Positions 4,800-24,942 of a DNA stretch of 51,162 nucleotides are shown in pieces. The notes beneath the pieces are model-generated. The model was not told the origin of the DNA. It made no database searches and saw nothing but the letters and a program-made list of their open reading frames with translations. Made by a program: the position numbers and the translations under genes. Every line of letters begins with the position of its first letter. Positions within the stretch are counted from its first letter, which is position 1. The DNA lies in the NCBI GenBank assembly GCA_034658935.1, contig JAYEGE010000002.1, forward strand, positions 1 to 51,162, read 5' to 3'. The stretch comes from Patescibacteria group bacterium. GTDB lineage: Bacteria > Patescibacteriota > Minisyncoccia > Phycocordibacterales > JACOZG01.

Positions 4800-5797
4800 C
4801 CTAACATCTTCTCTAAAATCGAGCGGTAGATCTCCTCAACTCGCTCGCCCTGCTCGGGGCCCAAGCTAGCGTAATTGGCGAGACCAGGCGAAGCATTCAG
4901 TTCTAAAATACTGTAATCCCCTGGCGCCCCATCCAAGCCGCCTGGGCTTATGATATCAATGCCAACGAAGCGCAGATTTATGTCGCGAGCGATCTTGGCA
5001 GCCAACTCTCGCCAAGCTGGATAGAGCTCTCTGGTTAGATCCTTAGCCTCTCCGCCAGTCGAGAGATTAGCATTGGGCAAGAGCTTCACTTGTTCTCCTT
5101 GCACTGGTTTAGATTGCCAAGAGAGTTCTAATTGCTTGAGTTGATTATCTAAACGGAAGTCGTCACTCTCGATGGCCAACTCTCGTTCAGCGGCAACCAG
5201 TTCTGTTTGCCGCCTTTGCCAAAGCTCGCCCAAGGTCGAACGACCATCGCCAATAAGACTGAGCGGGCGACGCTCATAGGCGGCCACCACCTCTCCATCT
5301 AAAACAGTTAGGCGGTAATCGCGGCCCCGGAGTACCTTCTGGACAATAAAGACCCTCTCTCTGTCTTGGAGAGCCTCCACAGCCTGCTTAAACTCTTCCT
5401 CGTCGTGCACCTTGGCCACACCAATCCCCTGCTTCTGACTATTGGGTTTAACAATTAGAGGCCAACCCAAGCTCTGGGCATAAGTTAAAGCCTTGCGCCA
5501 ATCGCGCTCACTACCAATCCGTTGACACCACCAATCGGTGAAGAAAGCCTGCCCGTCAGGTGCTGGGTAGCCGAAGCGCTTTAGGAAACGGGAGGTATAA
5601 TCTTTGTCTTTGGCTAGCTCAGTGGCACCACTAGTATTTAAGTCGAAGGCAGAGCCGCGAAAGAAGCGACGTTGACCATCTGGTAATTCTAAATAACCAA
5701 CGTAGCCATAACGCGGCTCTAGATAAAACTTAACGCCCCGCTCCTTAGCGAGACGACGCAAAATTGAACCGATAGAACTAGGCTTCATAAGGCCCAC
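4796..5797 (-). CDS. Stand-alone ATP-grasp ligase (resembles the cyanophycin synthetase N-terminal / GshAB-type grasp domain)
   Basis: LAKDKDYT, PLIVKPNSQKQGIGV, DYRLTVLDG, NLSTGG, GIDII, LELNASPG. Confidence 0.85.
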   Translation of the reverse strand: MGLMKPSSIGSILRRLAKERGVKFYLEPRYGYVGYLELPDGQRRFFRGSAFDLNTSGATELAKDKDYTSRFLKRFGYPAPDGQAFFTDWWCQRIGSERDWRKALTYAQSLGWPLIVKPNSQKQGIGVAKVHDEEEFKQAVEALQDRERVFIVQKVLRGRDYRLTVLDGEVVAAYERRPLSLIGDGRSTLGELWQRRQTELVAAERELAIESDDFRLDNQLKQLELSWQSKPVQGEQVKLLPNANLSTGGEAKDLTRELYPAWRELAAKIARDINLRFVGIDIISPGGLDGAPGDYSILELNASPGLANYASLGPEQGERVEEIYRSILEKMLG

Positions 5798-5936: not shown

Positions 5937-6356
5937 TTAACGCACGCGAAAGCTGATCATTTTGTTGAGCAGGCCTCTAACTATGCGGCGGAGGAGAGGC
6001 CAACGGATAATCAACTTAGACAGTGGAGGAGAAGCTCGATAGTAGACCCCCACAAACGCTCGGCCCCAGAAACTAGGAAGCAGTCTCTGGTCTCGAAACT
6101 GACGTAGCCATTTAACTTCCGGGGCCAGTTCTGAGCCGTAGGCGGCAGTGGCAATAAAACAACCGCCCCCCCCTCCGCCCCCACCAGAGATCTCACCTGA
6201 CTTTCGAGCGTCATCCCTGGCTTTATGCCAATTTCTTGACGCCTGACTGGTCGACACTCCCGTGTCTTTGGCCGCATCTTTCAATGTATACTTGCCCACT
6301 TCATCAACCCGCCTTTCTTTATCTGCCGACCTCTTTGTTCGGATTAGACGATCCAA
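5937..6356 (-). CDS. Small protein: HTH-like N-terminus, poly-Gly linker, CFI-box-CTERM domain
   Basis: [19 protein letters not shown], then [31 protein letters not shown]...YYRASPP; start codon (TTG) uncertain. Confidence 0.75.
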
Positions 6357-9740: not shown

Positions 9741-9901
9741 CTTCTAAAACAAGACTTAAACTTTATGGAATTGTTGTCGGTATTAAATAATTTGCGAACC
9801 GTGAGGCCCGACGACAATCACCCTCATAGATATTGCTTTATCTTGCTCTTGTTGTTAGACTACAACAACAGATTTTATTAATTTTTGAGCTGGTAATTCC
9901 C

Positions 9902-10738
9902 ATGTTTAATACTCGCAACGATACAATAGTCAGAAGCCTAATGGATTACGGCCTCAGCGAAAAAGAGACGCTGGTCTACCTGGCTACTTTAAAATTAGAA
10001 GTCGCCACAGCCCAAGAGATCGCCAAGATAGCGGACGTAAACCGAAGTTCAACTTATGTAGTCCTGGAGACCCTCACAAAGAAGGGGTTAGTTGGTATAT
10101 CTGACGACAATAGCGTAAGACGCTATGTGGCCACTTCCCCTGAAGTCCTAGCACAAAACGCCAAAAACCTAGCATCTAAACAGGAAAATATCAAAGAAAA
10201 AATCGTCGATATCTTACCGGAATTGAAAGCCCTTCACAAAGACACGAGAAACAGACCGAGAGTTAAAATTTTTGAAGGCGCAAATGGCATAATGGAAGCC
10301 CTAGAGGATACTTTGGGATGTCGGGAAAGGAAAATTAGAATATATTCAGCAATAGAAAACGTCGCCAAACTATTGCCGCGAAATTATTTTGTCGCTTACG
10401 TTACCAATAGACTTAAACGCAAAATTAGCATGAGCGGCATACATCCGGATAACGAGACCTCCAGGATGTTAACCAAAACAGAAGCAATAAGAATAGACAA
10501 GCCTCTGTTAATACAAGACAAAAGGTACAAATTCCCAGCAGATCTGGCAATCTATGATGATAAAATAGGATATATGTCAGGAGAAGGAGGTGGTCTTGCT
10601 ATTATTATAGAGAGTCCGGCAATGGCTGAAACCATGAAGAATGTCTTTGATTTAGCCTGGGAACGAGCCGAGGACTTGGTCACTCGTCAGTCTGGGGCTA
10701 TGAGGCGTAGCGACAATCGGACAACCAAGTCGAAATAA
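9902..10738 (+). CDS. TrmB-like transcriptional regulator (wHTH plus PLD-like sensor domain)
   Basis: YGLSEKETLVYLATLKL...AQEIAKIADVNRSSTYVVLETLTKKGLV, FEGANGI, IYDDKIGYMS; ATG 9902 preferred over the track start. Confidence 0.88.
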   Translation: MFNTRNDTIVRSLMDYGLSEKETLVYLATLKLEVATAQEIAKIADVNRSSTYVVLETLTKKGLVGISDDNSVRRYVATSPEVLAQNAKNLASKQENIKEKIVDILPELKALHKDTRNRPRVKIFEGANGIMEALEDTLGCRERKIRIYSAIENVAKLLPRNYFVAYVTNRLKRKISMSGIHPDNETSRMLTKTEAIRIDKPLLIQDKRYKFPADLAIYDDKIGYMSGEGGGLAIIIESPAMAETMKNVFDLAWERAEDLVTRQSGAMRRSDNRTTKSK

Positions 10739-11698
10739 GGCCTGGGGTTTTAAGTTTGTTTGAAGAATTTTCTGTAAGTCTTGATAGTGGCTCCCTATCT
10801 GGATCGGGGAGGCCCACATAGCCGTTGAAAATCCGGCCTTAGCTGCCAGCAGGGCAATCCTTTCGTAAGTCTGGCCTACCCGTATCCAGTTCCTCGGCTG
10901 GTCATTTTTTGAAGCAATAACCACTAAAGCTGGTGTTTGTTCAGCCAATAAGCGCCGATCTTTTCTGGCGCTCGCCTTATTCACATTAACGTATTTCATT
11001 AATCGTGGGACCAGGATAGACACCAGAGTGGGCATACCAAAGCCAAAACCAGGCATCCCAATGCAAGAACCCGTTTTATTTGGCACAACATACCTAGAAA
11101 GCTCCTGCCTAAATCCCTTATCGCCCGTTGCCTCTATGGAGGCGGCGACGGCAACGTTGGCAATATCTCGCCTGACTCCCCCATCCTGCACAATAAAAAT
11201 CTTTATCCCATCGGTGTCTAATCGCGTCAGTGCTTCAATTAATCCAAGTGGTAGTCCTCCAAGTTTATAAGGATTACGGTTTGAGACTCTCCGGGAAATA
11301 AAATTAGCCAAATGATCGCGAGGGCCTAGTTTACCATGCTTTGCTTCCAGTTTTTTGACGGCCAACCTAACGACTGACTGCCCCCAGTCAGTTCTATCGG
11401 GGTAAATCACCACAATCTCATGGTTGTAATAGTCTGCCGCAATCAAAATATTTTCTACGGCGCAACCCAAACTCATATAAGCTTGACGATTATTACTATC
11501 ACTGTGGGGCAAAAGCCGAGAGAGTTCCAGGGCAACACTAATGACTCCATTATCAATTTTGAATTTCCAGGGTTGACTATTATGACTCGACGGCGCCAAG
11601 ACCGCAAAATTTAAGAGAAAACACAGTTTGTCCTTGGGCGTTGTCGGCTTATGAAAATCGTCCAAAACCAGCTCCCAAGCTTTATAATTATTACCCAT
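10652..11698 (-). CDS. Acg/Rv2032-like nitroreductase-fold FMN protein
   Basis: AVLAPSSHNSQPWKF, SLGCAVENI, RRVSNRNPY, WIRVGQTYERIAL, ALFRLG; ATG 11698 preferred (track start 11725). Confidence 0.87.
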   Translation of the reverse strand: MGNNYKAWELVLDDFHKPTTPKDKLCFLLNFAVLAPSSHNSQPWKFKIDNGVISVALELSRLLPHSDSNNRQAYMSLGCAVENILIAADYYNHEIVVIYPDRTDWGQSVVRLAVKKLEAKHGKLGPRDHLANFISRRVSNRNPYKLGGLPLGLIEALTRLDTDGIKIFIVQDGGVRRDIANVAVAASIEATGDKGFRQELSRYVVPNKTGSCIGMPGFGFGMPTLVSILVPRLMKYVNVNKASARKDRRLLAEQTPALVVIASKNDQPRNWIRVGQTYERIALLAAKAGFSTAMWASPIQIGSHYQDLQKILQTNLKPQALFRLGCPIVATPHSPRLTSDQVLGSFPG

Positions 11699-11818
11699 AA
11701 AGAGAATATTACCAAAAGCCATCATGAAAACAATGTCCCAGGAGTTGGAGATCCGTGGTAACAGTTCATAACCGCCTTAGCGCCACCCAACATTGGAGAG
11801 GGAAATGGTTATTGAAAA

Positions 11819-13000
11819 CTACAACCCAAAGATCTTTTTGAAAGACTCTACCACCTGCCCCCTTTTGGCAGCAGATTCTGGGGTATCCCAATCAGGAGTA
11901 AGTTCCTTATCCAGAAGGATGAGGGCACGATTAGACTCCAATTCTTGACCATTGAGAATCTTTCGGACACAATAGGCCACTGCGGCCCCATTGATCATTG
12001 CCGCACCCCCTAATTGGGGCCAGGAGACGATCGTCTTGCCCATTTCGAGAAGTGATTGTTGCATCCGCTCAGTAACATTTTCTGGTCCGACATGCTTAGT
12101 AATCATCTTGCCGATACCAAACTTGTCTAATTTGCTAAGCATCTCGTAGTCCACCTCCCCCATTCGCCCATGGAAAAATGGTGTGTCTGGATCTAAATCG
12201 TAGCGTTCGATATCGACAACCGAATTATCTCCATTGTCAGCGGCCATCACCACCGCAATTTTATGTTTTTTCGCGTGCTCTCTAATTAAATATTTAACAG
12301 CGAGATTATCGAGTTCGTCTATAACAATATCCAGCCCCTCAAAAAACTTCCCAATATTGTCAGGCTGAAGACCGTCAGAGAATAACTCAACCTCGGCGTA
12401 GGGATTAATCTCGTAGATTCTCCTCGCGGCCATCTCCACCTTAAGCGCACCGAGATTATCAACCCCCATCAATATGCGATTGGTGTTGGAGAGTGCCAAC
12501 CTGTCCATGTCAGCCAACTTAATATGTTTAGCGCCCCCCTGGAGCGCTAAGGCAAAGGCCACACTAGAGCCGATACTCATTCCCCCTATTCCCACCGTAG
12601 AGTTGTAAAACTTATCTTGCTCTTCAGCGGTGATTAGATTCTTATTGCGGGCCGTCCTGACAAGCCAAAAATCATCCTCCAACAAGATATGTACGAGAGT
12701 CGAGCTCCACGGATAGTACACCCAGTGGCCTTGCCGCCAGAGCGGCATAGATTCGCCCAGCCCCCGAAGATAGTCCTGGAAATCGGTTTCGAAGTTGGGT
12801 GCATACACCTTTGACGGATTGTTTACACCAAATAGCTCACGTTGTTGCTCTTCGTAGTCGTCCACGACTACTTGGACCCCATTTTGATCAATAAGCCCTT
12901 GGAGATCCTCTTCGCCAGACCTCTTCGACAAATCAAAAATCGTGGGCTCTGAGCTTAAATCTTGATTCGCGTTTTCTTTTAAAAATTTCTCTGTTTTCAT
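11819..13000 (-). CDS. ThiF/E1-like adenylyltransferase of the Rv1355c-like type
   Basis: WVYYPW, RTARNKNLITAEEQ, VGIGGMSIGS, LADMDRLALSNTNRI, KVEMAARRIYEINPY, IDELD, SWPQLG. Confidence 0.88.
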   Translation of the reverse strand: MKTEKFLKENANQDLSSEPTIFDLSKRSGEEDLQGLIDQNGVQVVVDDYEEQQRELFGVNNPSKVYAPNFETDFQDYLRGLGESMPLWRQGHWVYYPWSSTLVHILLEDDFWLVRTARNKNLITAEEQDKFYNSTVGIGGMSIGSSVAFALALQGGAKHIKLADMDRLALSNTNRILMGVDNLGALKVEMAARRIYEINPYAEVELFSDGLQPDNIGKFFEGLDIVIDELDNLAVKYLIREHAKKHKIAVVMAADNGDNSVVDIERYDLDPDTPFFHGRMGEVDYEMLSKLDKFGIGKMITKHVGPENVTERMQQSLLEMGKTIVSWPQLGGAAMINGAAVAYCVRKILNGQELESNRALILLDKELTPDWDTPESAAKRGQVVESFKKIFGL

Positions 13001-13002
13001 TG

Positions 13003-14520
13003 TTAATTAGAAATATATTTAGGTTTCAAACCGGGTTTAAAATACTTTTCATGTTGGTAGGACCAAAGTTTAACCCGCGGAGATAAATTTTTGTCAGGAT
13101 GATGCTTAACGGTATCAGAATACTCACTATTGGCTTTCAATAGAGTTTGGCAGACTGCCTTCTTTATCTCAGCCCTAATTTTCGATGTTCCCTTGGTGTC
13201 TTTTCGCATTTCAATATTAACAACTAGACATTGTTCATGATTGGGCAAAGGTTTTTTGATGATAGTAAACTTACCCGTGATTCTACTTAAAAGATTCTTC
13301 CTCGCCAAGGCCATGTGTACGTGACCCGGGTAAATGTTTGCGGCATAGAAAATGACTGTCTGGTCACTCCGGCCGTAGAAAGCAATGAGCGGTAACCGCC
13401 ACGGATTAGTTGCCCCACCGACCCTCAAGTCCTTTTTCCAGTCTAAGCCCCCTCCCTCCAATGTTGATGCAAACTCATCGTAATCAAAGATACGTCCAGC
13501 ATCTTGTAAATCAAATCTAATCAAGGGAACCCCACCATTAGCGGTAAAGATTAGATTACCTCTCTCGCTCTCCTCTATATACCTAAGGGCGGGATTATAT
13601 TGAAACAATTGTGGTGATTGAGGTTGCCCGAAGACCGCTCGACTTTTGCGGCTATTTTTTTCGAAAAATTTTCGCGCCACAATAGTTAGGGGCGTCTCAC
13701 ATCCCATTAACAAGAGCTCGGATGATCCATAAGTGTTTATGGCCGCATTGAGATCAGACTCAGATCCCACCCGCTTCTTAATATAGGAGCGCCACAGCTC
13801 ACTAAAGCCCTCACTACAATAGAGCATTTTGATATCTAGAGATTTCCATCTTACCCCCTTGTTTGCCCCAGTCTCCACTACATCTTTTATGAAGAACGGG
13901 TGTCCGATTAGGAGGGTCTGCTCATAGTCCTTGGAGAGCTCTTTTACTGTCCGCAATATTTCATCTTTGTTGTTACCAGCACTTACCACCGTCGACCCGT
14001 ATTTCCTCATTGAAAACAACCAAGTCGGCAATAAGGTCGCCACTCCCGAGACATAGAAGCCCATTGGGAAACCGATAATGATGAGAGTTTTACGTTTGTG
14101 GATTGCAAAAAGATGTTTATAGATCAACTCATGGGTAATCAATGCTTCCAGATCCTGCTCCGACTGCCTAGGCCAAAAAATTGGTTCGCCGCTCGTCCCA
14201 GAACTCAACGCAATAAGATTATTGCTGGCCAAATTACCATCCCAACATCTGTCTTTCAGAGGATACTTTTTAACGTAATCACTTTTATCGGTAATCGGCA
14301 CTCTATCTTTGAAGTCACTAATAGTTCTAATCTCACGAGGAATCAGTTGATGCTTGTTGAGAAAATCTTTATAAGCCGGAACCCGATCAGCGGCAAGATG
14401 AAAAAGTTTCAGAGCGCGAGCCTCTCCACGACGCTGCCAGAAACTACTATTTTTTGTTTCTAATAGCTTTTCGAATGAGGAGACCCCCCCTATTTTAAGC
14501 TCTGTTAATTGTCGGAGCAT
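13003..14520 (-). CDS. Phenylacetate-CoA ligase (PaaK)-like adenylate-forming enzyme
   Basis: RVPAY, SSGTSGEP, YGSSE, IRFDLQD, GRSDQ; overlaps the lyase stop. Confidence 0.85.
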   Translation of the reverse strand: MLRQLTELKIGGVSSFEKLLETKNSSFWQRRGEARALKLFHLAADRVPAYKDFLNKHQLIPREIRTISDFKDRVPITDKSDYVKKYPLKDRCWDGNLASNNLIALSSGTSGEPIFWPRQSEQDLEALITHELIYKHLFAIHKRKTLIIIGFPMGFYVSGVATLLPTWLFSMRKYGSTVVSAGNNKDEILRTVKELSKDYEQTLLIGHPFFIKDVVETGANKGVRWKSLDIKMLYCSEGFSELWRSYIKKRVGSESDLNAAINTYGSSELLLMGCETPLTIVARKFFEKNSRKSRAVFGQPQSPQLFQYNPALRYIEESERGNLIFTANGGVPLIRFDLQDAGRIFDYDEFASTLEGGGLDWKKDLRVGGATNPWRLPLIAFYGRSDQTVIFYAANIYPGHVHMALARKNLLSRITGKFTIIKKPLPNHEQCLVVNIEMRKDTKGTSKIRAEIKKAVCQTLLKANSEYSDTVKHHPDKNLSPRVKLWSYQHEKYFKPGLKPKYISN

Positions 14521-16058
14521 ACTTTCAGGCGTGACAAAACCTTGGCCAGATCATTAGCCAGGGCCCTATCATCGGTTATTGCGGGGAACATTTCTCTAAT
14601 ACTGCGGTAAAATTCAGCTATTGGGCCAGACAGCTCACCACCGGTTTTGAGTAAATCAGTACATTGAGCCAGAGTGACAACCTCAATAGCCTGAATTATG
14701 AAAGAATTGTCGACTACCTTAGAGCACAGAAGCGCCGCATCAGTCCCCATGCTCACCACATCCTGATTGTCAGCATTAGTAGGAATTGAGTGAACATATT
14801 GTGGGTATGCCAAGGTCTGACTTTGGGCGGCAGTTGAAGTCGCCACAAACTGGAGCCCCTGCAGGCCTAATGTTAGCCCTGGTTTCTGTAAATTTAAAAA
14901 GGGGGGGAAGGTGGCGTTGACCTTATCGTTTAGGAAGAAATTGATTCGCCTCTCGGCCAAAAGGCCGAGTTTTACAATAGTCATCTTGAGTTGATCAACG
15001 GCGTAAGCGATGTAGTCACCATGGAAATTACCACCATGGAGAAAACTCTCTTTCTCCCAATCAACAATCGGATTGTCAGTAACGGAATTAATCTCGATTG
15101 CCACCATCTCTTTGGCTTTCTCCACTGCATCATAGACAGGGCCGAGTATCTGGGCCAAGCAGCGAAACGAGTAGACCTCTTGGACTGTCTCAGAAATTTT
15201 ATAGACCTCTTCCGCCTGCGTACCATTTTTCTTTAGGTCCTTCCTGTCTTTCAAAAGCTTGGAGTCCGCCAACAACTTCCTTAAGCGGCCAGATACGCAT
15301 AATTGACCGGCATGCGGCCTCAGAGCATGGAGGCCCTCTGCGATACTGTCATCAAAGGCGTTCACTAACTCTAGAGCCCAAGCGCCGGCCTTAATCTCGT
15401 TATCGAGAAGCCCAGCGGCCCTAGAGACAAGCACCGCGGCTATTCCACCCATCACCGAAGTTCCGTTAATCAATGACAGCCCTTCTTTGGCTTTGAGTTC
15501 ATAGGCCTCGAGTTTTAGTTCTCCAGCGACCTTAGACATCGGTTGCCTTTTGCCTTGATAAAAAACCTCTCCTTCTCCTATTAAAGCCAGAGCAACGTGG
15601 GCAAGCTGAACCAAGTCACCACTAGTCCCCACTGCCCCATGCTCGAGAACAACTGGAATAATTCTTTTGTTAATGTAGGCCGCAAGTCTCTCAACTAATT
15701 CAACTGACACACCGGAGTATCCCTTGACCAGAGTGTTAAGCCGCACAAGCATCGCCGCTAAGACATAGTCTTGGTCAATTGGCTCCCCCATGCCAGTGGC
15801 ATGGCTTCTAATTAGATTGACTTGAAGATTGGCCGCCTCATCATCGTTAACAAGATATGAGGCCATTGGACCAAAACCCGTGTTAACACCGTAAACAATG
15901 TGGTCTTCACGATGTTTCTCAAGGAAAGCACGGGACTGCCGCACTTTATCTAAGGCCTCAGGAGAAATCTCCACCGAGCCCTGTGGGCCAGCAATGAACT
16001 GTTGAATATCGCCAATGGTCAGATCTCCCCCAGTCAGAGTCAGTTTATTTCCTTTCAT
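14505..16058 (-). CDS. MIO-dependent aromatic amino acid ammonia-lyase (FjTAL-like; substrate unproven)
   Basis: YGVNTGFGPMA, LQVNLIRSHATG, HGAVGTSGDLVQLAH, INGTSVM, YSFRC, DNP, HGGNFHGDY, DNQDVVSMGT. Confidence 0.92.
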   Translation of the reverse strand: MKGNKLTLTGGDLTIGDIQQFIAGPQGSVEISPEALDKVRQSRAFLEKHREDHIVYGVNTGFGPMASYLVNDDEAANLQVNLIRSHATGMGEPIDQDYVLAAMLVRLNTLVKGYSGVSVELVERLAAYINKRIIPVVLEHGAVGTSGDLVQLAHVALALIGEGEVFYQGKRQPMSKVAGELKLEAYELKAKEGLSLINGTSVMGGIAAVLVSRAAGLLDNEIKAGAWALELVNAFDDSIAEGLHALRPHAGQLCVSGRLRKLLADSKLLKDRKDLKKNGTQAEEVYKISETVQEVYSFRCLAQILGPVYDAVEKAKEMVAIEINSVTDNPIVDWEKESFLHGGNFHGDYIAYAVDQLKMTIVKLGLLAERRINFFLNDKVNATFPPFLNLQKPGLTLGLQGLQFVATSTAAQSQTLAYPQYVHSIPTNADNQDVVSMGTDAALLCSKVVDNSFIIQAIEVVTLAQCTDLLKTGGELSGPIAEFYRSIREMFPAITDDRALANDLAKVLSRLKVCSDN

Positions 16059-16141: not shown

Positions 16142-16783
16142 TTACTGCTTAAATCTTACCGCTACCACGCCAGTATTCTCTAAGCGCGGAGGAGTCATTG
16201 CGACGGCAAAAATCTCCGGAGTTACCTTACGATTTGGGACAGGAGGCAGACCTGGCTCGTGAAAAGTGACCTCAGTTTTAGAAACTTCAGTCACTACCAC
16301 CAAATGACTCCAATAGCCCTCTTCTTTTCTTAGGGCATGAGGGTTTACTGCAACCATCAAGATATATCCCTTTTTGTTGTATTCGATCACGTCTTCTATG
16401 GTACAAACTTTATAGATCAGTTTTACGTCCTTATTTTTGAGTAATACTTTTGCCAACCTTTGCTCATGCGCCAAATCAGTCAACTGCTTTTGCCCCTCAA
16501 GCGTCTCGGGACTCCAGATTTCAGCACAATATTTCTCACCCTCTCCCGCAAAACGAGAGTAATTAAAATTTTCCAGATTGACAACCTCTAGGCCCTGTTT
16601 CTCTAAAAGATCTAAGACCAAGCTCATGCTGGTTCCGTAACCCTTAAGGTGGCCAGTGATCATATTAAGTTCAGCATAGGTGAAAATCTTTTTTGGGAAA
16701 AAATATTTCAAGGCCATGCACAGACATGCTTGCACGCAGTGTCTATCATCTATAGTGTTGGGAAAAAATGGTATTTTATTCAT
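16142..16783 (-). CDS. Peptidase C39-like (papain-fold) protein
   Basis: HCVQAC (Cys), SHLVVV (His), FHEPG (Glu where Asp is usual). Confidence 0.78.
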   Translation of the reverse strand: MNKIPFFPNTIDDRHCVQACLCMALKYFFPKKIFTYAELNMITGHLKGYGTSMSLVLDLLEKQGLEVVNLENFNYSRFAGEGEKYCAEIWSPETLEGQKQLTDLAHEQRLAKVLLKNKDVKLIYKVCTIEDVIEYNKKGYILMVAVNPHALRKEEGYWSHLVVVTEVSKTEVTFHEPGLPPVPNRKVTPEIFAVAMTPPRLENTGVVAVRFKQ

Positions 16784-16803
16784 GTTTTGTATTATAAATA
16801 TAA

Positions 16804-16830
16804 AGACGGGAGGCCGCGATCGGCCTCCCT
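16804..16830 (-). terminator. Hairpin with weak U-tract between the micro-peptide and the C39 gene
   Basis: gggaggccg-atcg-cggcctccc followed by gtctttat. Confidence 0.55.
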
Positions 16831-16840
16831 ATGACAGAAG

Positions 16841-16915
16841 TTAGCTACCTGGGCCACTACCCCTGCCACTACCGGAACTTCCACCGCCCCCGCCGAAGCA
16901 ATGCACAAAACTCAT
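16841..16915 (-). CDS. 24-aa Gly/Ser-rich micro-peptide MSFVHCFGGGGGSSGSGRGSGPGS; not in the ORF track
   Basis: Strong SD AGAAAGGAG shortly upstream, ATG 16915, TAA 16841-16843, varied Gly/Ser codons, downstream hairpin. Confidence 0.65.
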   Translation of the reverse strand: MSFVHCFGGGGGSSGSGRGSGPGS

Positions 16916-17225
16916 AGCGCTCTCCTTTCTAGCCTCTTTCTTATCTCCGCATAAGAACATATTTATGGTTAAGCCAACCTCAACCATCTAGACTTAAGAT
17001 TAGAGCATGACGTATTGTTGTCGATAGATGACAATAGAGAAAAACGGATGACTAAAATGTCAAATCATATCGTATCGACAAAACACCAGATGGCAGACAC
17101 CAAAAGACTTTTAGCTTTACTTGTCAATAACTTGTAACAACTTTTTTCTTGTAGCACACGAACTACCTATCCCCGTCACTGAGAGCCAACATCTCATAAG
17201 CAAAGCTTCGATGTGGCGGATAAAA

Positions 17226-18977
17226 TTATTTCTTCTCCCCCACTTCCTTCTTTAATTTGGTAATGAATTCGTCAACGCTTAGATTTTCTTTATCATCGCC
17301 ATCGCGGGATTCGATGGTTAGTTTTTTGTCGGCGACCTCCTTATCTCCCAAGACCACAGCGTAAGGCGCCTTCTCTAATTTCCAATTACGGATCTTCTTG
17401 CCCAGACTCTCGTCTGAATCGTCCAACTCGGCCCGCAAACCTTCGTCCTGCAGACTCGCCACTACTTCCTTAGCGAAGTCCATATGGGCCTCGCCGATAG
17501 GCAGAACCTTAACTTGGACTGGAGCCAGCCAAGTGGGCAACGAGCCGGCCGTGTGCTCAATAAGGATAGAGAGGAAACGCTCGATGGAACCCATAATAGC
17601 GGCGTGGATCATCACAATCCGCTCCTTCTCCCCTTTCTCATTAACACAGGTCAGGTCAAAGCGCTCGGGCATATTCATGTCTAGCTGGATAGTCGCTACT
17701 TGCCACTCCCGACCCAAGGAATCCTTGGCCATGAAGTCCAGCTTGGGGCCGTAGAAAGCGGCCTCGCCAGGAGCGTCGACATAATCGACCCCCTTCTCCT
17801 TAGCGATCGCTTCCAAAACAGACTCGGCCTCCTCCCAACTCTTCTCTTCGCCCAGATAATTCTCCATCTTCTCTGGATCATGGCGTGAGAGCCAAACCTC
17901 AATCTCAAAACCAAAAGCACCGTAGAACTCATGGACAATATCCCAGATTTTTAGAAACTCTTCCTTAACTTGTGAGGTCCGACAGAAGACGTGGGCATCG
18001 TCTTGAGTAAGACTGCGAGTGCGAGAGATACCAGCCAACTCCCCCGATTGCTCATCACGATAACACTTAGTAGTGCTAGCATAACGCTGAGGCAATTCTC
18101 TATAACTCCACAGCTTGCGAGCGTAGATTTGAGTGTGGTGCGGGCAATTCATTGGCTTCATCACAAACTCATGCCCCTCGCGCGTTTTGATTTGGAAGAG
18201 CTCGTCCTTAAATTTGTCCCAATGGCCACTAGTGATATAGAGATCCTTCTTGGTAATGTGAGGGATATCAACCAACACATAACCCTGCTCAGTCCGGAGT
18301 TCCCAAACAAAAGTGTCGAGTAAATTGCGGACTAAAGTCCCCTTCGGCGTCCAGAGCGGCAGGCCGCTCCCCACCAAATCAGAGAAGGTGAAGAGGTCTA
18401 GGGCTGGGCCCAGCTTCTTATGATCACGCTTAATAGCTTCCTCACGTTGTTTGCGATAATCGCCTAGCTCATCTTTAGTATCAAAGGCCAATCCGTAAAT
18501 TCGAGTTAGCATTTGGTTTTCCTCACTCCCCCGCCAATAAGCGCCGGACAGACGGTCGAGCTTGAAGGAGTCTGGCTTGATGTCCTTGGCGGGGTTTTCG
18601 TTATGTCCGCCGCGGCAAAGATCGGAAAAACCGGCGCAGGCGTAGAAAGTGACTTGTTCGCCTTTACCGGCAATCTCATCAATTAGTTCTAGCTTGTATG
18701 GATTGTCCTCGTATTCCTTCTTAGCTTCGTCAGGACTCATCTCACTATAATCAAAACTCCCCCAGGTGGGCAGGAGCTCCTGCATCTTCGCCTCAATCTT
18801 CTCTAAATCCTCTTCGCCAATTGGTTTAGTAAATTCAAAATCGTAATAGAAGCCGTCATCGACAGTCGGCCCAATAGCGTGCTTGGTGTCTGGCCAGAGT
18901 TCCAGCACAGCCGCCGCTAGTAAATGGGCCAAAGTATGCCGTTTATGGTCTAATCCCTCCTTGTTATCCTTGTTCAT
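17226..18977 (-). CDS. thrS: Threonine--tRNA ligase (no N-terminal TGS domain)
   Basis: RHTLAHLLA, DLCRGGH, GAYWRG, RDHKKLG, KPMNCPHH, YRDEQSGEL, AAFYGPKLD; ATG 18977. Confidence 0.97.
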   Translation of the reverse strand: MNKDNKEGLDHKRHTLAHLLAAAVLELWPDTKHAIGPTVDDGFYYDFEFTKPIGEEDLEKIEAKMQELLPTWGSFDYSEMSPDEAKKEYEDNPYKLELIDEIAGKGEQVTFYACAGFSDLCRGGHNENPAKDIKPDSFKLDRLSGAYWRGSEENQMLTRIYGLAFDTKDELGDYRKQREEAIKRDHKKLGPALDLFTFSDLVGSGLPLWTPKGTLVRNLLDTFVWELRTEQGYVLVDIPHITKKDLYITSGHWDKFKDELFQIKTREGHEFVMKPMNCPHHTQIYARKLWSYRELPQRYASTTKCYRDEQSGELAGISRTRSLTQDDAHVFCRTSQVKEEFLKIWDIVHEFYGAFGFEIEVWLSRHDPEKMENYLGEEKSWEEAESVLEAIAKEKGVDYVDAPGEAAFYGPKLDFMAKDSLGREWQVATIQLDMNMPERFDLTCVNEKGEKERIVMIHAAIMGSIERFLSILIEHTAGSLPTWLAPVQVKVLPIGEAHMDFAKEVVASLQDEGLRAELDDSDESLGKKIRNWKLEKAPYAVVLGDKEVADKKLTIESRDGDDKENLSVDEFITKLKKEVGEKK

Positions 18978-19028
18978 ATTGAGCCTAATATAGCATAAAG
19001 CGGCTGTGTCGTCTGCTACAATAACAGT

Positions 19029-19361
19029 ATGGCGAGAGATCAGGGATTTCACGATTACATAGTTTACGACCTATTGAGCGAGCTGCCGGACCTACGGTCG
19101 CGAGGGATGTTCGACGGCCATGGTTTGTATCAAAAGGATACCTTTTTTGGCTTCGTCAATGAAGGAGTACTTTATTTGAAAACTGGGGAAGCTGATCGCA
19201 GTGAATATAAGGAATACGGCTCTGCCCCCTTCTCCTACCCTCGAGCAGGCAAAACTGCCACCCTCCACACTTATTGGGCCGTGCCTGGAGAAATCTTAGA
19301 CGATCCTCCCCGCCTCCTCGAATGGGCCGAACGCGCAATCCAAGCCACACTTGATAAGTAA
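19029..19361 (+). CDS. TfoX/Sxy N-terminal domain protein
   Basis: RSRGMFDGHGLY...FGFVNEGVLYLK...PFSY...YWAVP...LLEWA. Confidence 0.85.
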   Translation: MARDQGFHDYIVYDLLSELPDLRSRGMFDGHGLYQKDTFFGFVNEGVLYLKTGEADRSEYKEYGSAPFSYPRAGKTATLHTYWAVPGEILDDPPRLLEWAERAIQATLDK

Positions 19362-21347: not shown

Positions 21348-22430
21348 TTACAAGCCTTCTTTTTTCAGCTCCTCCATCAGCTTCTTGGCTTGGCGAGAGA
21401 GTCTGGTTGGAGTAGAAACAATAACTTTAATTAAAAGGTCGCCACGTTTATTGGGCCCAGTATGTACTCCCTTATTACGCACCCGGAGAAACTCACCAGA
21501 GGAGATTCCCGCAGGAATTTTAAGATTTAAATCACCATCGAGAGTTTTGAGTTTTTGTTCGGCGCCGAGAATAGCGTCTGAAAATTTAACCTTCAAGTCC
21601 ATCAACAGATTGGCCCCCTCACGCCGGAAAATTGCGTGCTTATCAACATGAACCCGGACATATAGGTCACCAGCCACACCGCCAGTAATCGCCTCGCCTC
21701 TGCCAGAGAGGCGGATCATCTCACCATTCTCCAGCCCAGCTGGAATCTTGATTTTGATCTCCTCAGTTTTCTTAAGAGTGCCATGACCCCCGCAAGCCTT
21801 GCAACCCTTCTCTGGCACCTTACCACTCCCTCGACAGGCTTCGCATTCACGAGCCACATTAATTACTCCCAAGAAGGAGCGGCGACTCTCTTGGATCTTA
21901 CCTTGCCCATTACAAGTCGAGCAGGTCTTCAATTCAGTACCTGGTTCCGCCCCCTTGCCATCACAAGTATCGCAAACACCAATCTTATTTATTAAAACCT
22001 GACGTTCAGTACCGAAAACCGAATCAGCAAAAGAAATCTGAATATCGACGGAGATATCCCGCCCCCTTTTAGTCTGGCCCCCACCACGCCGGCCGCCAAA
22101 CATATCGCCAAAGATATCGCCTAAGTCGAAAGCAAAGCCACTGCCAGAAGCGTCGCCGCCAGAGAAATTAGTGAAGTCCCAACCACCGGCATTGCCAGCA
22201 CCACCGCCCATACCACCACCAGAGCCAGCGGAGCCAAAGGTGTCGTATTGTTGGCGCTTACTGTCGTCGCCGAGCACCTGGTATGCCTCGTTGACCTCCT
22301 TGAATTTGCCCTCATCACCATTCTTCTTATCGGGGTGATACTTATGGGCTAATTTATGGAAGGCCTTCTTAACGTCGTCTTTAGAGGCGCCTTTTTCAAT
22401 CCCCAAAATTTGATAATAATCCTTAGACAT
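21348..22430 (-). CDS. dnaJ: Chaperone DnaJ
   Basis: J domain with HPD, G/F region, four CxxCxGxG-type repeats. Confidence 0.98.
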   Translation of the reverse strand: MSKDYYQILGIEKGASKDDVKKAFHKLAHKYHPDKKNGDEGKFKEVNEAYQVLGDDSKRQQYDTFGSAGSGGGMGGGAGNAGGWDFTNFSGGDASGSGFAFDLGDIFGDMFGGRRGGGQTKRGRDISVDIQISFADSVFGTERQVLINKIGVCDTCDGKGAEPGTELKTCSTCNGQGKIQESRRSFLGVINVARECEACRGSGKVPEKGCKACGGHGTLKKTEEIKIKIPAGLENGEMIRLSGRGEAITGGVAGDLYVRVHVDKHAIFRREGANLLMDLKVKFSDAILGAEQKLKTLDGDLNLKIPAGISSGEFLRVRNKGVHTGPNKRGDLLIKVIVSTPTRLSRQAKKLMEELKKEGL

Positions 22431-24373
22431 TAGTTGGTCTCTGCATCTCGTACATTGCCCTCCCCTCCAGGTGGAGTATCTCCACTCTTTTTCGGTTGTT
22501 CATCCGTTTTACCATCTTCAGGTTTAGGTTGTTCTTGGCCGGCTTCTCCAGTGGGCCCTGCGGCTGAGGACATCGCCTGGCCAATCTTCTGCATTGCCTG
22601 GGAGAGACCCTCGGTGCCAGATTTAATGGCCGCCGTGTCCTTGGCCTCCAAGGCCTTCTTCAATTCGCTGACCTTATCTTCAACTTCCTTCTTTACATCA
22701 GCTGGGGCCTTATCGCCAGCATCTTTCACAGATTTTTCAGCAGTATAGATTAATTGTTCAGCCAAATTACGTGTTTCAATTTCTTCTTTCTTCTTCTTAT
22801 CTTCATCGGCATGTAGTTCGGCATCTTTCTTCATCTTTTCAATATCCTCATCACTCAAGCTCGAGCGGGCTTCAATTCGGATAGACTGTTCTTTTCCGCT
22901 AGCTTTGTCCTTAGCCTTAACATTCAAGATGCCGTTAGCATCGACGTCAAAGCTCACTTCTACCTGCGGCATACCGCGAGGTGATGGTGGAATACCATCT
23001 AGGATAAAGCGACCTAAGGATTTATTGTCCGTAGCCATTTGTCGCTCACCTTGAGTAATGTGGATCTCAACTGAGGTCTGATTATCGGCGGCAGTCGAGA
23101 AGACCTGACTGCGAGAAGTTGGGATAGTGGTATTCTTCTCAATCAATTTAGTGCTGACACTGCCCAAAGTCTCAATACCAAGGGACAGCGGAATAACATC
23201 GAGCAAAAGCACATCCTTAACGTCACCCTGGAAAATTCCGGCCTGAATCGCCGCACCCAAGGCAACCACCTCGTCGGGGTTAATAGATAGGTTGGGCTCC
23301 TTACCAAAGAATTTCTTCACCGCTTCAATGATAGCTGGCATCCGGGTCTGCCCACCTACCAAAATAACTTCCTCGATATCGCCAGGCTGGAAGCCAGAAG
23401 CTTCTACTGCCCGCTTAGTAATCTCCATCGCCCGATCAATAAACTCTTGGGCCAATTCCTCAAGCTTGGCGCGAGTCATCTTCAGTAGCAAGTGGCGTGG
23501 CCCCGAGGCATCAGAGGTAATAAAGGGGATATTAATCTCAGTCTCAGGAGTCGTAGAGAGCTCATGCTTAGCCTTCTCGGCACCTTCCTTCAAGCGCTGG
23601 AGGGCGAGTTCGTCTTTAGTGACATCGATACCACTCTCCTTCTTGTACTCCTCACCAATCCACTTGATAATCTTCTGATCAATATCCTCACCACCCATAT
23701 GTGAGTCACCATCGGTAGCCTTAACTACCACACTTTGCTCATCTTCCGCACCGGTAATTTCTAGAATAGAGACATCGAAGGTCCCGCCACCGAAGTCGAA
23801 AACGGCCACCTGCTCGTCCTTCCTCTTATTAAAGCCGTAGGCCAAGGCGGCAGCTGTTGGCTCGTTGATGATCCGGCGAACCTTAAAGCCGGCGATCTCT
23901 CCAGCCTGGCGGGTAGCTTGTCGTTGAGAGTCGTCAAAATAGGCTGGCACAGTAATCACCGCCTCTTCGATCTTCTCGCCCAGCTTAGATTCAGCATCCT
24001 TCTTCAATTTTTGGAGAATCATGGCGGAAATTTCTTCTGGCCGGTAACTCTTATCATCTATCTTAACCTTGATTCCACCATCATCAGACTGGCTCATCTC
24101 ATAGGGAGAAATATCGCGGTCACGCTTAATATTGGCATCTTCAAATTTATGACCCATCATCCGTTTAATACCGTAAATAGTACTCTTTGGATTAGTGATC
24201 GCCTGGCGCTTAGCCAAGAGACCCACCAGACGTTCCCCGCCCTTAGACACAGCCATAACAGAAGGCATAGTGCGCGCCCCTTCAATATTCTCAATTATTC
24301 GCGGTTCGCCACCCTCGATGTATGCCATCGCTGAGTTAGTGGTCCCCAAATCAATGCCTAAAATTTTAGCCAT
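22430..24373 (-). CDS. dnaK: Chaperone DnaK
   Basis: [35 protein letters not shown]. Confidence 0.99.
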
Positions 24374-24399
24374 ACTTTTTAATATTTAAATCTTAATAA

Positions 24400-24942
24400 T
24401 TATTGACCCACCTTCACCCTGGCCGGTCTGATAACCTTGCCGTTCAACCGATACCCCTTCTGGACAACTTCTACTACTATATCACTTTCGTTTACCCCGC
24501 CGGCCATCTCGACTGCCTGATGAATAACTGGATTAAAAGAAACATCGACATCGCCAATTACTTCTAGCCCGTTCTGCTTGAAGATATCACCGAGCTTGGC
24601 GTAGATATGCATTATTCCCTGCCGCCAATTCTCATCAACCGCCTCCCAACTCTCCTTATTGGCCATTGCCAGCTCGAAATTGTCAGCTAGCTCCAATAAT
24701 TGAGTCAGGAGATCGGCCTTGGCGAACTTAAACATCTCTGCCTGGCCAGACTCGGCCTCCTTACGGTAATTGAGATAATCGGCCCTAAGGCGCTGACTAG
24801 CATCAAGATATTCCTGGCGCTCAGTCTGACAAATCTTTAGTTTAGCCCTCAATTTCTTAATCTGAGCGGCTGGATTGACCACCTCCTCTTCAGGCACCAA
24901 CTCTTCGTCAGAGCCATCTTCTAATTCAATTTCCTCGTCCAT
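24400..24942 (-). CDS. grpE: Nucleotide exchange factor GrpE
   Basis: RLRADYLNYRK, FNPVIHQAV, QKGYRLNGKVIRPARVKV. Confidence 0.96.
   Translation of the reverse strand: MDEEIELEDGSDEELVPEEEVVNPAAQIKKLRAKLKICQTERQEYLDASQRLRADYLNYRKEAESGQAEMFKFAKADLLTQLLELADNFELAMANKESWEAVDENWRQGIMHIYAKLGDIFKQNGLEVIGDVDVSFNPVIHQAVEMAGGVNESDIVVEVVQKGYRLNGKVIRPARVKVGQ

What the first reader, a model, noticed from the sequence alone, without database searches (positions are those of the whole stretch)
16142..17081. Hidden 24-aa Gly/Ser/Cys micro-peptide directly upstream of a C39-like peptidase
Seen: SD AGAAAGGAG, then MSFVHCFGGGGGSSGSGRGSGPGS*. There are leader hairpins (atggttgag/cttaaccat; tcttat/ataaga), a weak terminator, an upstream inverted pair ttgtcgata (17018-17026) / tatcgacaa (17073-17081) that could be an operator, and a Cys-His-Glu peptidase next door. 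Known: C39 enzymes cut after double-Gly, and microcin B17 is Gly/Ser/Cys-rich and uses E1-like and FMN enzymes, though it also needs YcaO. Inference: a RiPP-like precursor or acyl-carrier peptide (Cys as acceptor, as in PYP) for the cluster.
Basis: partly seen in the sequence, partly recalled or inferred. Interest (0 to 1): 0.75.

Follow-up and report, generated by a model that had tools for sequence, protein, structure and literature searches.

The report
Glycine-rich micro-gene paired with a peptidase
The 24-codon glycine-rich reading frame is very probably a real small gene: similar ones sit in front of related cysteine-peptidase genes in many uncultured CPR bacteria, but it does not belong to the neighbouring tyrosine-lyase/ThiF/flavin enzyme cluster.

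Summary
The window contains AGAAAGGAG, a 6-nt spacer, ATG, 24 codons (MSFVHCFGGGGGSSGSGRGSGPGS) and a stop. A strong terminator hairpin follows, not a weak one, and then a 213-aa papain-fold C39-like protein (Cys16/His160/Glu176).

The TAL, PaaK/GH3-like ligase, ThiF and FMN-oxidase genes form a cluster conserved in more than 50 CPR loci. None of those loci has a C39-like gene or a conserved upstream micro-ORF. ThiF plus nitroreductase is the published oxazolone-synthetase chemistry, which acts on small molecules and needs no peptide.

The micro-ORF belongs with the peptidase. The same layout (extended SD, 24-43 Gly-rich codons, terminator, peptidase ATG) precedes C39-like genes in 11 or more distinct loci. 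By one uniform criterion, 8 of 34 C39-like genes have it against 6 of 2163 other genes (p=4e-12). Codon periodicity supports translation.

Searching from the peptide side, relatives (GSGGHGxGxxGSGGQ...RGK) sit directly upstream of a C39-like or an M16 peptidase at five of six sites.

Most likely this is a peptide and its processing or turnover peptidase, with unknown biology. The window's peptide fits by position, architecture and composition, not by sequence motif. I found no description of the family in Pfam, NCBIfam or the searched papers.

The parts
16841..16915 (-). Micro-ORF of 24 codons plus stop, encoding MSFVHCFGGGGGSSGSGRGSGPGS.
   Evidence: Read directly. Codon periodicity of G is 0.46/0.71/0.17. 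It occupies the same slot as Gly-rich micro-ORFs upstream of homologous C39-like genes.
16922..16930 (-). Shine-Dalgarno AGAAAGGAG, 6 nt before the ATG.
   Evidence: An SD is exceptional in this window, where 1-2 of 42 genes have one. Related loci carry (A)AGGAGGTGAT in the same place.
16796..16829 (-). Intrinsic terminator: a 9-bp GC stem (16829-16821 / 16816-16808), an ATCG loop and a T-rich tail.
   Evidence: -20.6 kcal/mol, z=-4.8. A comparable hairpin plus T-tract follows the micro-ORF in every related locus examined.
16791..16796 (-). TATAAT box 7 nt before the peptidase ATG. It is likely the peptidase gene's own -10 element or a leaderless-style start region.
   Evidence: Read directly. 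The same A/T-rich TATAAT-like context occurs before most genes of the window and before C39-like genes in L165, L167 and L329. Promoter function is inferred, not shown.
16142..16783 (-). C39-like papain-fold cysteine peptidase, 213 aa, with Cys16/His160/Glu176 and no signal peptide.
   Evidence: Pfam DUF3335 (Peptidase_C39-like) below threshold. 545 representatives in an exhaustive HMMER search. Relatives carry PF03412, PF13529 and PF11814, and one is named 'C39 family peptidase'. The family profile hits the ComA peptidase domain at E=4e-5. AF2 pLDDT is 93.8. Foldseek returns PeiR, phytochelatin synthase, PCAT1/ComA C39 and staphopain.
16938..16987 (-). Two small hairpins in the 5' leader (16987-16965 and 16957-16938).
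   Evidence: z=-2.2. They are not seen as a conserved feature in related loci. Significance is doubtful.
17018..17081 (-). Exact 9-nt inverted repeat bracketing a TTGACA (17063-17058). It could be a promoter/operator region for the micro-ORF.
   Evidence: Chance expectation is about 0.1 per region and the fold z-score is -1.9. Several related loci have TTGACA-N16-17-TAnnnT promoters 30-60 nt upstream of their micro-ORF. Operator function is untested.

Best explanation
The micro-ORF is a real, independently expressed small gene. It has its own ribosome-binding site and terminator, and probably its own promoter. It encodes a short, glycine-rich, unstructured cytoplasmic peptide. Together with the downstream C39-like cysteine peptidase it forms a two-gene module that recurs in CPR (Patescibacteria) genomes. 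The module is unrelated to the adjacent TAL/ligase/ThiF/FMN-oxidase (oxazolone-type) cluster.

The most likely working relationship is substrate and enzyme. The peptide is made in excess, because a strong SD drives translation and the terminator limits read-through. The peptidase, using Cys16/His160/Glu176, then cleaves it, probably at or next to a Gly-Gly bond. This either removes the short variable N-terminal part (MSFVHCF in the window) or controls the peptide's level.

Shown:
- the sequence features;
- the conserved synteny and architecture;
- the coding signature;
- the peptidase fold and catalytic triad;
- the independence from the enzyme cluster.

Inferred:
- translation in vivo;
- that the peptide is the peptidase's substrate;
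- the cleavage site;
- any biological role of the product.
For: 1. The same layout (extended SD, ATG, 24-43 Gly-rich codons, GC hairpin plus T-tract, A/T-rich start of a C39-like gene) is found in the window and in L165, L166, L167, L169, L178, L184, L191, L202, L204-206 and L329-333. L207/208 has an interrupted version. The surrounding genes differ between loci.
2. By a uniform criterion, 8 of 34 C39-like genes against 6 of 2163 other genes have an upstream Gly-rich micro-ORF. The odds ratio is 110 and Fisher p=4e-12. Among C39-like genes at least 40% identical to the window's (L165-169, L198, L202, L204, L207, L329 and the window), 9 of 11 have one; L207's is interrupted by an in-frame stop.
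3. The coding signature is clear. G sits at codon positions 1 and 2 (0.4-0.7) but rarely at position 3 (0.04-0.25), GGG codons are avoided, and orthologues show many synonymous differences, for example L165 against L167 with 13 synonymous and 6 amino-acid changes. A conserved motif, GSGGHGxGxxGSGGQ...RGK, runs across phylum-level lineages.
4. Search from the peptide side gave six sites. P0208 lies directly upstream of a C39-like gene that is 42% identical to the window's, on 5 contigs. L304, L318, P0209 and P0216 lie directly upstream of an M16 metallopeptidase. P0211 lies next to neither. Two unrelated peptidase families in the same slot point to proteolysis of the peptide as the shared function.
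5. The peptidase is catalytically intact and C39-related.
6. More than 50 TAL/ligase/ThiF/FMN clusters lack both the micro-ORF and the peptidase. C39-like loci lack that cluster.
7. The window's genes almost never use an SD, which makes the SD here meaningful.
Against: - The window's own peptide does not match the family motif. An HMM of 17 family members scores it 3.5 bits (E about 8 within the window alone), because it lacks the His-Gly, Gln and terminal RGK positions and has a unique hydrophobic, Cys-containing N-terminus. Its membership rests on position, architecture, length and composition.
- About two thirds of the more distant C39-like genes have no such micro-ORF.
- One family peptide (P0211) and the L003 example are not next to a peptidase.
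- No canonical double-glycine leader is present, and no exporter or modifying enzyme is conserved nearby.
- The terminator and the TATAAT before the peptidase ATG suggest the two genes may be transcribed separately.
- There are no expression or biochemical data.
Confidence: 0.55

Rival explanations
1. One reading: the peptide is a RiPP-like precursor or a Cys acyl-carrier (PYP-style) for the TAL/ligase/ThiF/FMN cluster, and the C39-like enzyme is its leader peptidase.
For: The genes are adjacent and on the same strand in the window. The peptide is Gly/Ser/Cys-rich like microcin B17. E1-like and FMN enzymes do occur in azole RiPP pathways (general knowledge).
Against: - The four-gene cluster is conserved in more than 50 CPR loci with no C39-like gene.
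- 42 distinct TAL-containing clusters have upstream regions with no conserved small ORF, and most of those intergenic gaps are only 30-150 bp.
- No C39-like locus carries TAL, ligase, ThiF or the FMN oxidase.
- The ThiF half matches Rv1355c/TrzS at 342 bits, and the FMN protein matches the TrzS C-terminal half and the Acg family. These are oxazolone synthetases acting on N-acyl amino acids (PMC12856293; 10.1101/2020.06.11.147165).
- There is no YcaO and no PAS domain.
- TAL has its own TAGAAT box, and a promoter-like site follows the peptidase stop.
Confidence: 0.04
2. A cis-acting leader peptide or attenuator: translation of the Gly-rich uORF controls read-through of the terminator into the peptidase gene, and the peptide itself has no function.
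For: A short ORF with a strong SD is followed closely by a terminator in front of a gene. In several loci the stop codon lies only 5-17 nt from the stem, so a terminating ribosome could mask the 5' arm. The ORF has many Gly codons.
Against: - No alternative antiterminator pairing was found. The terminator hairpin persists in the minimum-free-energy fold of the whole ORF-plus-spacer in all 7 loci folded.
- The distance from stop to stem varies from 5 to about 60 nt.
- The amino-acid motif (His, Gln, terminal RGK) is conserved beyond Gly content, with many synonymous changes.
- The peptidase genes have their own TATAAT-like start context.
- There is no obvious logic linking Gly-tRNA supply to a peptidase.
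Confidence: 0.12
3. A free-standing small disordered protein, for example a stress, RNA-binding or chaperone-like 'shield' protein, whose closeness to peptidases reflects a shared proteostasis neighbourhood rather than an enzyme-substrate pair. Alternatively, the peptide regulates or inhibits the peptidase.
For: - The composition is cationic Gly/Arg/Lys-rich and RGG-like.
- Its own promoter-like site and terminator make it a separate transcription unit.
- HSP20 lies upstream in L329, L330 and L332. DnaK and DnaJ are nearby in L304 and in the window.
- P0211 and L003 have no peptidase neighbour.
- Foldseek also retrieves staphopain, which has a dedicated co-encoded inhibitor.
Against: The immediate adjacency, same strand and fixed order upstream of a peptidase hold in 5 of 6 peptide-side sites and 11 or more C39-side loci, although the wider neighbourhoods differ. 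Replacement of C39-like by M16 in the same slot is most simply explained by a shared substrate.
Confidence: 0.22
4. A chance ORF or non-coding G-rich element in the thrS-TAL intergenic region.
For: The ORF is only 24 codons long. The window peptide fails the family HMM. No close relative of this exact region is available, since the peptidase occurs on a single contig in the collection.
Against: It has an exceptional SD at ideal spacing in an SD-poor genome. It shows GGN periodicity with varied third positions. A strong terminator follows directly. The identical architecture occurs in front of orthologous peptidase genes with p=4e-12 enrichment. There is no Rfam match.
Confidence: 0.05

Closest known systems
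Double-glycine leader peptides and C39 peptidase domains (ComC/ComA, class II bacteriocins, PCAT1, LahT150).
   Same: The partner is a papain-fold Cys/His peptidase related in sequence to the ComA peptidase domain (profile E=4e-5) and in fold to PCAT1/ComA/LahT. A small ribosomal peptide rich in Gly-Gly is encoded directly upstream.
   Different: - The peptidase is free-standing and has no ABC exporter.
- No signal peptide or exporter was identified, so it is presumably cytoplasmic.
- The peptide has no 15-30-aa amphipathic leader.
- The peptide is almost entirely Gly/Ser/polar and cationic, with no hydrophobic core.
- The acidic triad residue is Glu in the window.
- M16 peptidases replace the C39-like enzyme in some loci.
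RiPP precursor plus M16 or other dedicated peptidase pairs (PqqA/PqqF-G, subtilosin AlbE/F, mycofactocin MftA/MftE).
   Same: A tiny precursor gene has its own strong translation signals and a terminator ahead of the processing genes. A dedicated peptidase gene lies adjacent, and M16 family members occupy the slot in L304, L318, L335 and L338.
   Different: No modifying enzyme (radical SAM, YcaO, cyclase and so on) is conserved next to the pair. No known precursor family matches in Pfam or NCBIfam. The product is unknown.
Microcin B17 (McbA with McbBCD).
   Same: The peptide has a Gly/Ser/Cys-rich composition. In the window an E1-like protein and an FMN enzyme lie nearby.
   Different: There is no YcaO. 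The E1-like and FMN genes belong to a separately conserved small-molecule cluster. The peptide has one Cys and no leader. Co-conservation with these enzymes was tested and not met.
Oxazolone synthetases OxzB, TrzS (Rv1355c) and TyzB/TyzC. This comparison is for the neighbouring genes, not the micro-ORF.
   Same: A ThiF-like cyclase and a flavin-dependent nitroreductase-type oxidase lie side by side. The window's two proteins match the two halves of the Rv1355c family model (PMC12856293).
   Different: The two activities are split into two genes. The N-acyltransferase (OxzA/TrzA/TyzA) is replaced by a tyrosine ammonia-lyase plus a PaaK/GH3-like adenylating ligase. The product is unknown. The cluster is found in CPR bacteria.
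Leader-peptide transcription attenuators (trp, his, thr leaders).
   Same: A short ORF enriched in one amino acid lies just ahead of an intrinsic terminator.
   Different: No alternative antiterminator structure was found. The peptide sequence is conserved beyond its composition. The downstream gene is a peptidase with its own start context.

Membership tests
RiPP precursor of the adjacent ThiF/FMN/ligase cluster (TOMM / microcin B17-like) | The precursor gene is co-conserved with the modifying enzymes. | tested here: not met
   None of the more than 50 homologous clusters has a C39-like gene. 42 distinct TAL-containing clusters have no comparable upstream ORF.
RiPP precursor of the adjacent ThiF/FMN/ligase cluster (TOMM / microcin B17-like) | A YcaO cyclodehydratase is present. 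| tested here: not met
   Pfam and NCBIfam scans of the cluster proteins show TAL, a PaaK/GH3-like ligase, ThiF and a nitroreductase only.
Double-glycine (C39) leader-peptide substrates | A leader of about 15-30 aa with conserved hydrophobic positions, ending in GG. | tested here: not met
   Only 7 residues precede the first GG in the window. Relatives have 1-12 polar or Lys-rich residues there.
Double-glycine (C39) leader-peptide substrates | The partner is a C39-type Cys/His peptidase. | tested here: met
   Cys16 and His160 are invariant, and position 176 is Asp in at least 90% of relatives (Glu in the window). The profile hits the ComA peptidase domain at E=4e-5. The fold matches PCAT1/ComA/LahT. 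Relatives carry PF03412 and PF13529.
Double-glycine (C39) leader-peptide substrates | The peptidase is fused to, or next to, an ABC exporter. | tested here: not met
   No transporter lies beside the pair in the window. Neighbours vary in related loci.
CPR glycine-rich micro-protein family (GSGGHGxGxxGSGGQ...RGK), defined here | The gene lies directly upstream of, and on the same strand as, a C39-like or M16 peptidase gene. | tested here: met
   In the window the gap is 57 nt. The same holds in 11 or more C39-side loci and 5 of 6 peptide-side sites.
CPR glycine-rich micro-protein family (GSGGHGxGxxGSGGQ...RGK), defined here | The architecture is strong SD, then 24-43 codons with at least 40% Gly, then an intrinsic terminator. 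| tested here: met
CPR glycine-rich micro-protein family (GSGGHGxGxxGSGGQ...RGK), defined here | The signature sequence motif is present (His-Gly, GSGGQ, basic C-terminus). | tested here: not met
   The HMM of 17 members scores the window peptide 3.5 bits, E about 8 among 1941 window segments. It has no Lys or Gln and ends in PGS.
PYP-type chromophore acceptor (4-coumaroyl thioester on Cys) | A PAS-fold protein carries the acceptor Cys. | tested here: not met
   The peptide is 24 aa, Gly-rich, and hits no domain.
Leader-peptide attenuator | Mutually exclusive terminator and antiterminator structures are coupled to the ORF. | tested here: not met
   The terminator persists in the MFE folds of the ORF plus spacer in 7 loci, with no conserved alternative.
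Oxazolone-synthetase clusters (OxzAB / TrzAS / TyzACB), applied to the neighbouring genes | [quoted passage not shown] | tested here: met
   NF005901 (Rv1355c family) matches the ThiF protein at 342 bits over model positions 4-349, and the FMN protein over positions 370-653. The Acg family scores 202 bits against a cut-off of 199. The function is taken from PMC12856293.
Oxazolone-synthetase clusters (OxzAB / TrzAS / TyzACB), applied to the neighbouring genes | An adjacent amino-acid N-acyltransferase is present. | tested here: not met
   No such gene was found. TAL plus a PaaK/GH3-like ligase occupy that place.

The most novel reading that the evidence does not exclude
Glycine-rich micro-proteins of 24-43 aa form a widespread and so far undescribed family of ribosomal peptides in CPR/Patescibacteria. 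Each carries an exceptional ribosome-binding site and a terminator, and each is matured by a dedicated neighbouring peptidase, either C39-like or, interchangeably, M16. The product would have its own biological activity, such as a signal, an antimicrobial, or a metal- or RNA-binding peptide. This would be a new minimal peptide-plus-peptidase system in organisms thought to have almost no secondary metabolism. The window's Cys/His-containing peptide would be a divergent variant.
Probability: 0.3. Interest if true: 0.8.

Novelty: new variant of a known kind. Interest (0 to 1): 0.62.

Why it matters
Small ORFs are routinely missed in annotation, and CPR bacteria are mostly known from genomes alone. 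This work shows that a 24-codon frame belongs to a recurring peptide-plus-peptidase module found across several CPR lineages. It has an unusual expression design: a near-perfect SD in genomes that mostly lack SDs, and its own terminator.

Two unrelated peptidase families alternate in the same slot. That gives a concrete, testable hypothesis: the peptide is cleaved.

The work also corrects a tempting misreading. The neighbouring E1-like and FMN enzymes are not RiPP machinery. They form a split oxazolone-synthetase-type small-molecule cluster with a new TAL/ligase front end. That cluster is widespread in CPR and worth study in its own right.

Tried and rejected
- Word-index homologue search of the peptidase found only 2 proteins and wrongly suggested an orphan. 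The exhaustive HMMER search found 545 representatives.
It was repeated with 8 sequences.
Only two low-GC CPR hits (L304, L318) were informative.
It was redone with a 41-aa first row.
- Pfam and NCBIfam scans of 10 peptides gave no family.
- An Rfam scan of the intergenic region gave nothing meaningful.
- The family HMM against all window reading frames did not pick out the window peptide. I therefore do not claim sequence homology.
- A search for an antiterminator found none.
- The upstream inverted repeat as an operator is not significant and not conserved, so I left it as a possibility only.
- The 48-aa alternative start has no SD and was rejected as less likely.
- The L003 Gly-rich 68-aa ORF beside a TAL cluster was considered as evidence for a link to that cluster. 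I rejected this because it is on the opposite strand and occurs in only one distinct sequence among the clusters examined.
- Four literature searches found no description of the module. One of the four did find the oxazolone literature.
Full report
**1. What is in the sequence**

The features below lie on the minus strand, in the 442-nt gap between thrS (17226-19052) and a 213-aa ORF (16142-16783).
- The SD AGAAAGGAG lies at 16930-16922, followed by a 6-nt spacer and ATG at 16915.
- The 24 codons read MSFVHCFGGGGGSSGSGRGSGPGS, ending in TAA at 16843-16841.
- Eleven nucleotides later comes a 9-bp stem with 8 GC pairs, GGGAGGCCG-ATCG-CGGCCTCCC (16829-16808), with a T-rich tail. It was found by the terminator scan and folds at -20.6 kcal/mol, z=-4.8, with 0 of 200 shuffles as good.
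- A TATAAT box (16796-16791) sits 7 nt before the ATG of the 213-aa ORF.
- The two small leader hairpins exist but are only mildly better than shuffles (z=-2.2).
- The 9-nt inverted pair 17018-17026/17073-17081 is exact and brackets a TTGACA. A perfect 9-mer pair turns up in about one shuffle in ten of this region.
- An in-frame ATG at 16987 would give 48 aa but has no SD.

**2. Is the SD meaningful?**

I listed the 25 nt upstream of 42 trusted genes of the window. Almost none has an SD. Most have an A/T-rich, TATAAT-like stretch a few bases before the start codon, which looks like leaderless or SD-independent initiation. Only one or two genes have a purine-rich SD-like motif. The SD in front of the micro-ORF is therefore exceptional for this genome. 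G occupies codon positions 1/2/3 at 0.46/0.71/0.17, and the ten Gly codons use all four synonymous forms. That pattern is expected of coding sequence, not of a G-rich structural element.

**3. The neighbours**

Pfam and NCBIfam scans gave the following.
- 16142-16783: sub-threshold DUF3335, the 'Peptidase_C39 like family'.
- 14505-16058: an aromatic amino-acid lyase, closest to the flexirubin tyrosine ammonia-lyase FlxA.
- 13003-14520: a PaaK/GH3-like adenylating ligase.
- 11819-13000: a ThiF protein matching the N-terminal half of the 'Rv1355c family' model at 342 bits.
- 10652-11725: an Acg-family FMN oxidoreductase matching the C-terminal half of the same model.
- 9833-10738 (+): a TrmB-type regulator.

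**4. Does the micro-ORF belong to the enzyme cluster?**

Using the ligase as the query, I fetched 163 related loci from genomes and metagenomes.
- TAL-ligase-ThiF-FMN-oxidase clusters, or variants of them, recur in more than 50 CPR loci.
- None of these loci contains a relative of the C39-like protein.
- In 42 distinct TAL-containing clusters the region upstream of TAL is mostly 30-150 bp. It holds no conserved SD-preceded small ORF.
- A scan for Gly-rich reading frames within 4 kb of the clusters found one distinct case (L003, also held as L004 and L107). It lies on the opposite strand, beyond the oxidase gene.
- The literature explains the E1-like and FMN enzymes without any peptide. ThiF plus nitroreductase is the oxazolone synthetase: OxzB in proteobacteria, TyzB/TyzC in M. 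tuberculosis, and TrzS (Rv1355c). It cyclises and desaturates N-acyl amino acids (PMC12856293; bioRxiv 10.1101/2020.06.11.147165; PMC10404671, listed).
- In the window the usual N-acyltransferase is replaced by TAL plus a ligase. In L006, TAL is in turn replaced by an ELFV amino-acid dehydrogenase.
- TrmB relatives occur near the cluster in five other loci, so that regulator goes with the cluster.

**5. Does it belong to the peptidase?**

The word-index search found only two relatives of the 213-aa protein, and the one extra contig had no micro-ORF. That picture was misleading.
- The exhaustive HMMER search found 545 representatives, mostly proteins of about 210 aa.
- Cys16 and His160 are invariant. 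Asn9 is invariant and Gln18 is conserved in at least 90% of relatives. Asp176 is present in at least 90% of relatives, and is Glu in the window.
- Relatives carry precomputed PF03412, PF13529, PF11814 and PF09778 hits. One is named 'C39 family peptidase'.
- A family profile hits the ComA peptidase domain at E=4e-5.
- The AlphaFold model is confident (pLDDT 93.8). Its nearest solved folds are papain-like enzymes: PeiR, primitive phytochelatin synthase, AziU3, PCAT1/ComA/LahT C39 domains, staphopain and CtaG.

A genome scan with a family alignment gave 33 loci, and look-ups of four closer relatives gave 11 more.
- None of them has TAL, ligase, ThiF or the oxidase.
- Directly upstream, on the same strand, many have a Gly-rich micro-ORF. 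Examples:
  - L165: MNKKGSGGHGSGNAGSGGQNGGGGIRGGDRGK
  - L167: MGGKGGSGGHGGGNAGSGGQNGQGGIRGGGRGR
  - L202: MAKDKKGSGGHGTGRDGSGGQSGGPGPRTGGKGK
  - L166: MAKGPSPHGKGSGGGRGGNGKPGKPGK
- Other cases are L169, L178, L184, L191 and L204-206. L207/208 has an interrupted version.
- The architecture matches the window's: an extended SD, typically AAGGAGGTGAT, 6-9 nt before the ATG; 24-43 codons; a strong GC hairpin with a T-tract (about -19 to -42 kcal/mol in nine of the ten loci; L191's is weak, -8); then an A/T-rich start of the peptidase gene.
- The wider neighbourhoods differ from locus to locus.
- With one uniform criterion, 8 of 34 C39-like genes and 6 of 2163 other genes have such an upstream ORF (Fisher p=4e-12).
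- Codon periodicity and many synonymous differences between orthologues support coding, with the caveat that Gly-rich sequences align easily.

**6. The test from the peptide side**

A DNA pattern for the motif was swamped by high-GC genomes. It still yielded two CPR loci (L304, L318) where the peptide gene, with its SD and terminator, sits directly upstream of an M16 metallopeptidase.

A profile search with the peptides found 13 small proteins sharing the motif GSGGHGxGxDGSGGQRGGPGPR..GK. Look-ups of four of them gave these results.
- P0208 lies upstream of a C39-like gene that is 42% identical to the window's, on five contigs.
- P0209 and P0216 lie upstream of M16 peptidases.
- P0211 lies next to neither.
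- L167 and L184 have an M16 gene on the other side of the peptide gene as well.

Two unrelated peptidase families in the same slot are most simply explained if cleaving the peptide is the common function. The peptides match no Pfam or NCBIfam family, and three literature searches found no description of the module.

**7. Caveats**

- The window's peptide is the odd one out. An HMM of 17 family members does not score it significantly (3.5 bits after composition correction).
- It lacks the His-Gly, Gln and basic C-terminal positions and has a unique MSFVHCF N-terminus.
- I therefore place it in the family by position, architecture, length and composition only. It may be a divergent member or an analogous occupant of the slot.
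- Most distant C39-like genes have no micro-ORF.
- The two genes may be transcribed separately.
- An attenuator model was tested and found wanting. There is no alternative structure, the terminator persists in all folds, and the stop-to-stem distance varies.
- Nothing here shows translation, cleavage or function directly.

**8. Verdict**

- The link to the C39-like peptidase is supported by comparative genomics.
- The link to the ThiF/FMN/ligase/TAL cluster, and the RiPP or acyl-carrier reading, is not supported.
- The most likely mechanism is a highly expressed Gly-rich peptide cleaved by its neighbouring peptidase. The role is unknown.
- It is a new variant of the 'small peptide plus dedicated peptidase' theme. 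The closest known relatives are double-glycine/C39 systems and M16-processed precursors, but it lacks their leader, exporter and modifying enzymes.

Noticed in passing
window 10652-16058 (-), with TrmB at 9833-10738 (+): [quoted passage not shown] The front end is a tyrosine-lyase plus ligase instead of the usual N-acyltransferase. The cluster is conserved in more than 50 CPR loci and is often followed by a 7TM histidine kinase. A TrmB-like gene lies nearby in the window and in 5 other loci. No product is known.
   Followed up: partly
L006 7926-15266: A variant of the same cluster in which TAL is replaced by a Glu/Leu/Phe/Val-type amino-acid dehydrogenase and an alpha/beta hydrolase is added. 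This suggests a family of pathways that start from different amino-acid-derived acids.
   Followed up: no
whole window (42 gene starts): Genes almost never have a Shine-Dalgarno sequence. Many have a TATAAT-like box 5-10 nt before the start codon, suggesting leaderless or SD-independent initiation in this organism.
   Followed up: partly
L207 77-160 and L208 (same sequence): The micro-ORF slot upstream of a C39-like gene (44% identical to the window's) reads MSGNGGNS-TAG-GGGCGGGGGGKD-TAG. The in-frame stop appears in two independent assemblies. It could be decay, an 8-aa peptide or read-through.
   Followed up: no
L304 3131-4577, L318 about 1200-2576, L335 838-2290, L338 3001-4491: Members of the Gly-rich peptide family lie directly upstream of M16 (insulinase-type) peptidase genes instead of C39-like genes. 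L167 and L184 have both kinds flanking the peptide gene.
   Followed up: partly
L329, L330, L332 (HSP20 at about 881-1374); window 21348-24942; L304 5-1461: Chaperone genes lie close to the peptide-peptidase module: HSP20 in three contigs, and DnaK/DnaJ(/GrpE) and a ClpP-like gene in the window and L304. This hints at a proteostasis neighbourhood.
   Followed up: no
window 5937-6356 (-); L167 9414-9797: A CFI-box-CTERM domain protein (NF041770, 91 bits) with a run of eight glycines before the [10 protein letters not shown] motif. A homologue lies a few kb from the module in L167 as well.
   Followed up: no
L003 6406-6612 (-): A 68-codon ORF ends in ...RVVCSGNGGNHNGGGTGGGGGGGDRGK and is followed by a terminator and a 90-aa membrane protein. 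It sits between the oxidase and kinase genes of a TAL cluster, on the opposite strand. Its Gly-rich tail resembles the peptide family, but no peptidase lies next to it.
   Followed up: partly
L169 2390-3109 and 6001-6645: Two C39-like paralogues occur in one Moranbacteria locus. Only the second is preceded by a Gly-rich micro-ORF, and a 7TM histidine kinase lies directly upstream of that micro-ORF.
   Followed up: no
window 4796-5797 (-): A free-standing 333-aa ATP-grasp protein resembles the ATP-grasp part of cyanophycin synthetase (TIGR02068, 145 bits, far below the cut-off). Relatives occur near TAL clusters in L010 and L085 and near the module in L178.
   Followed up: no
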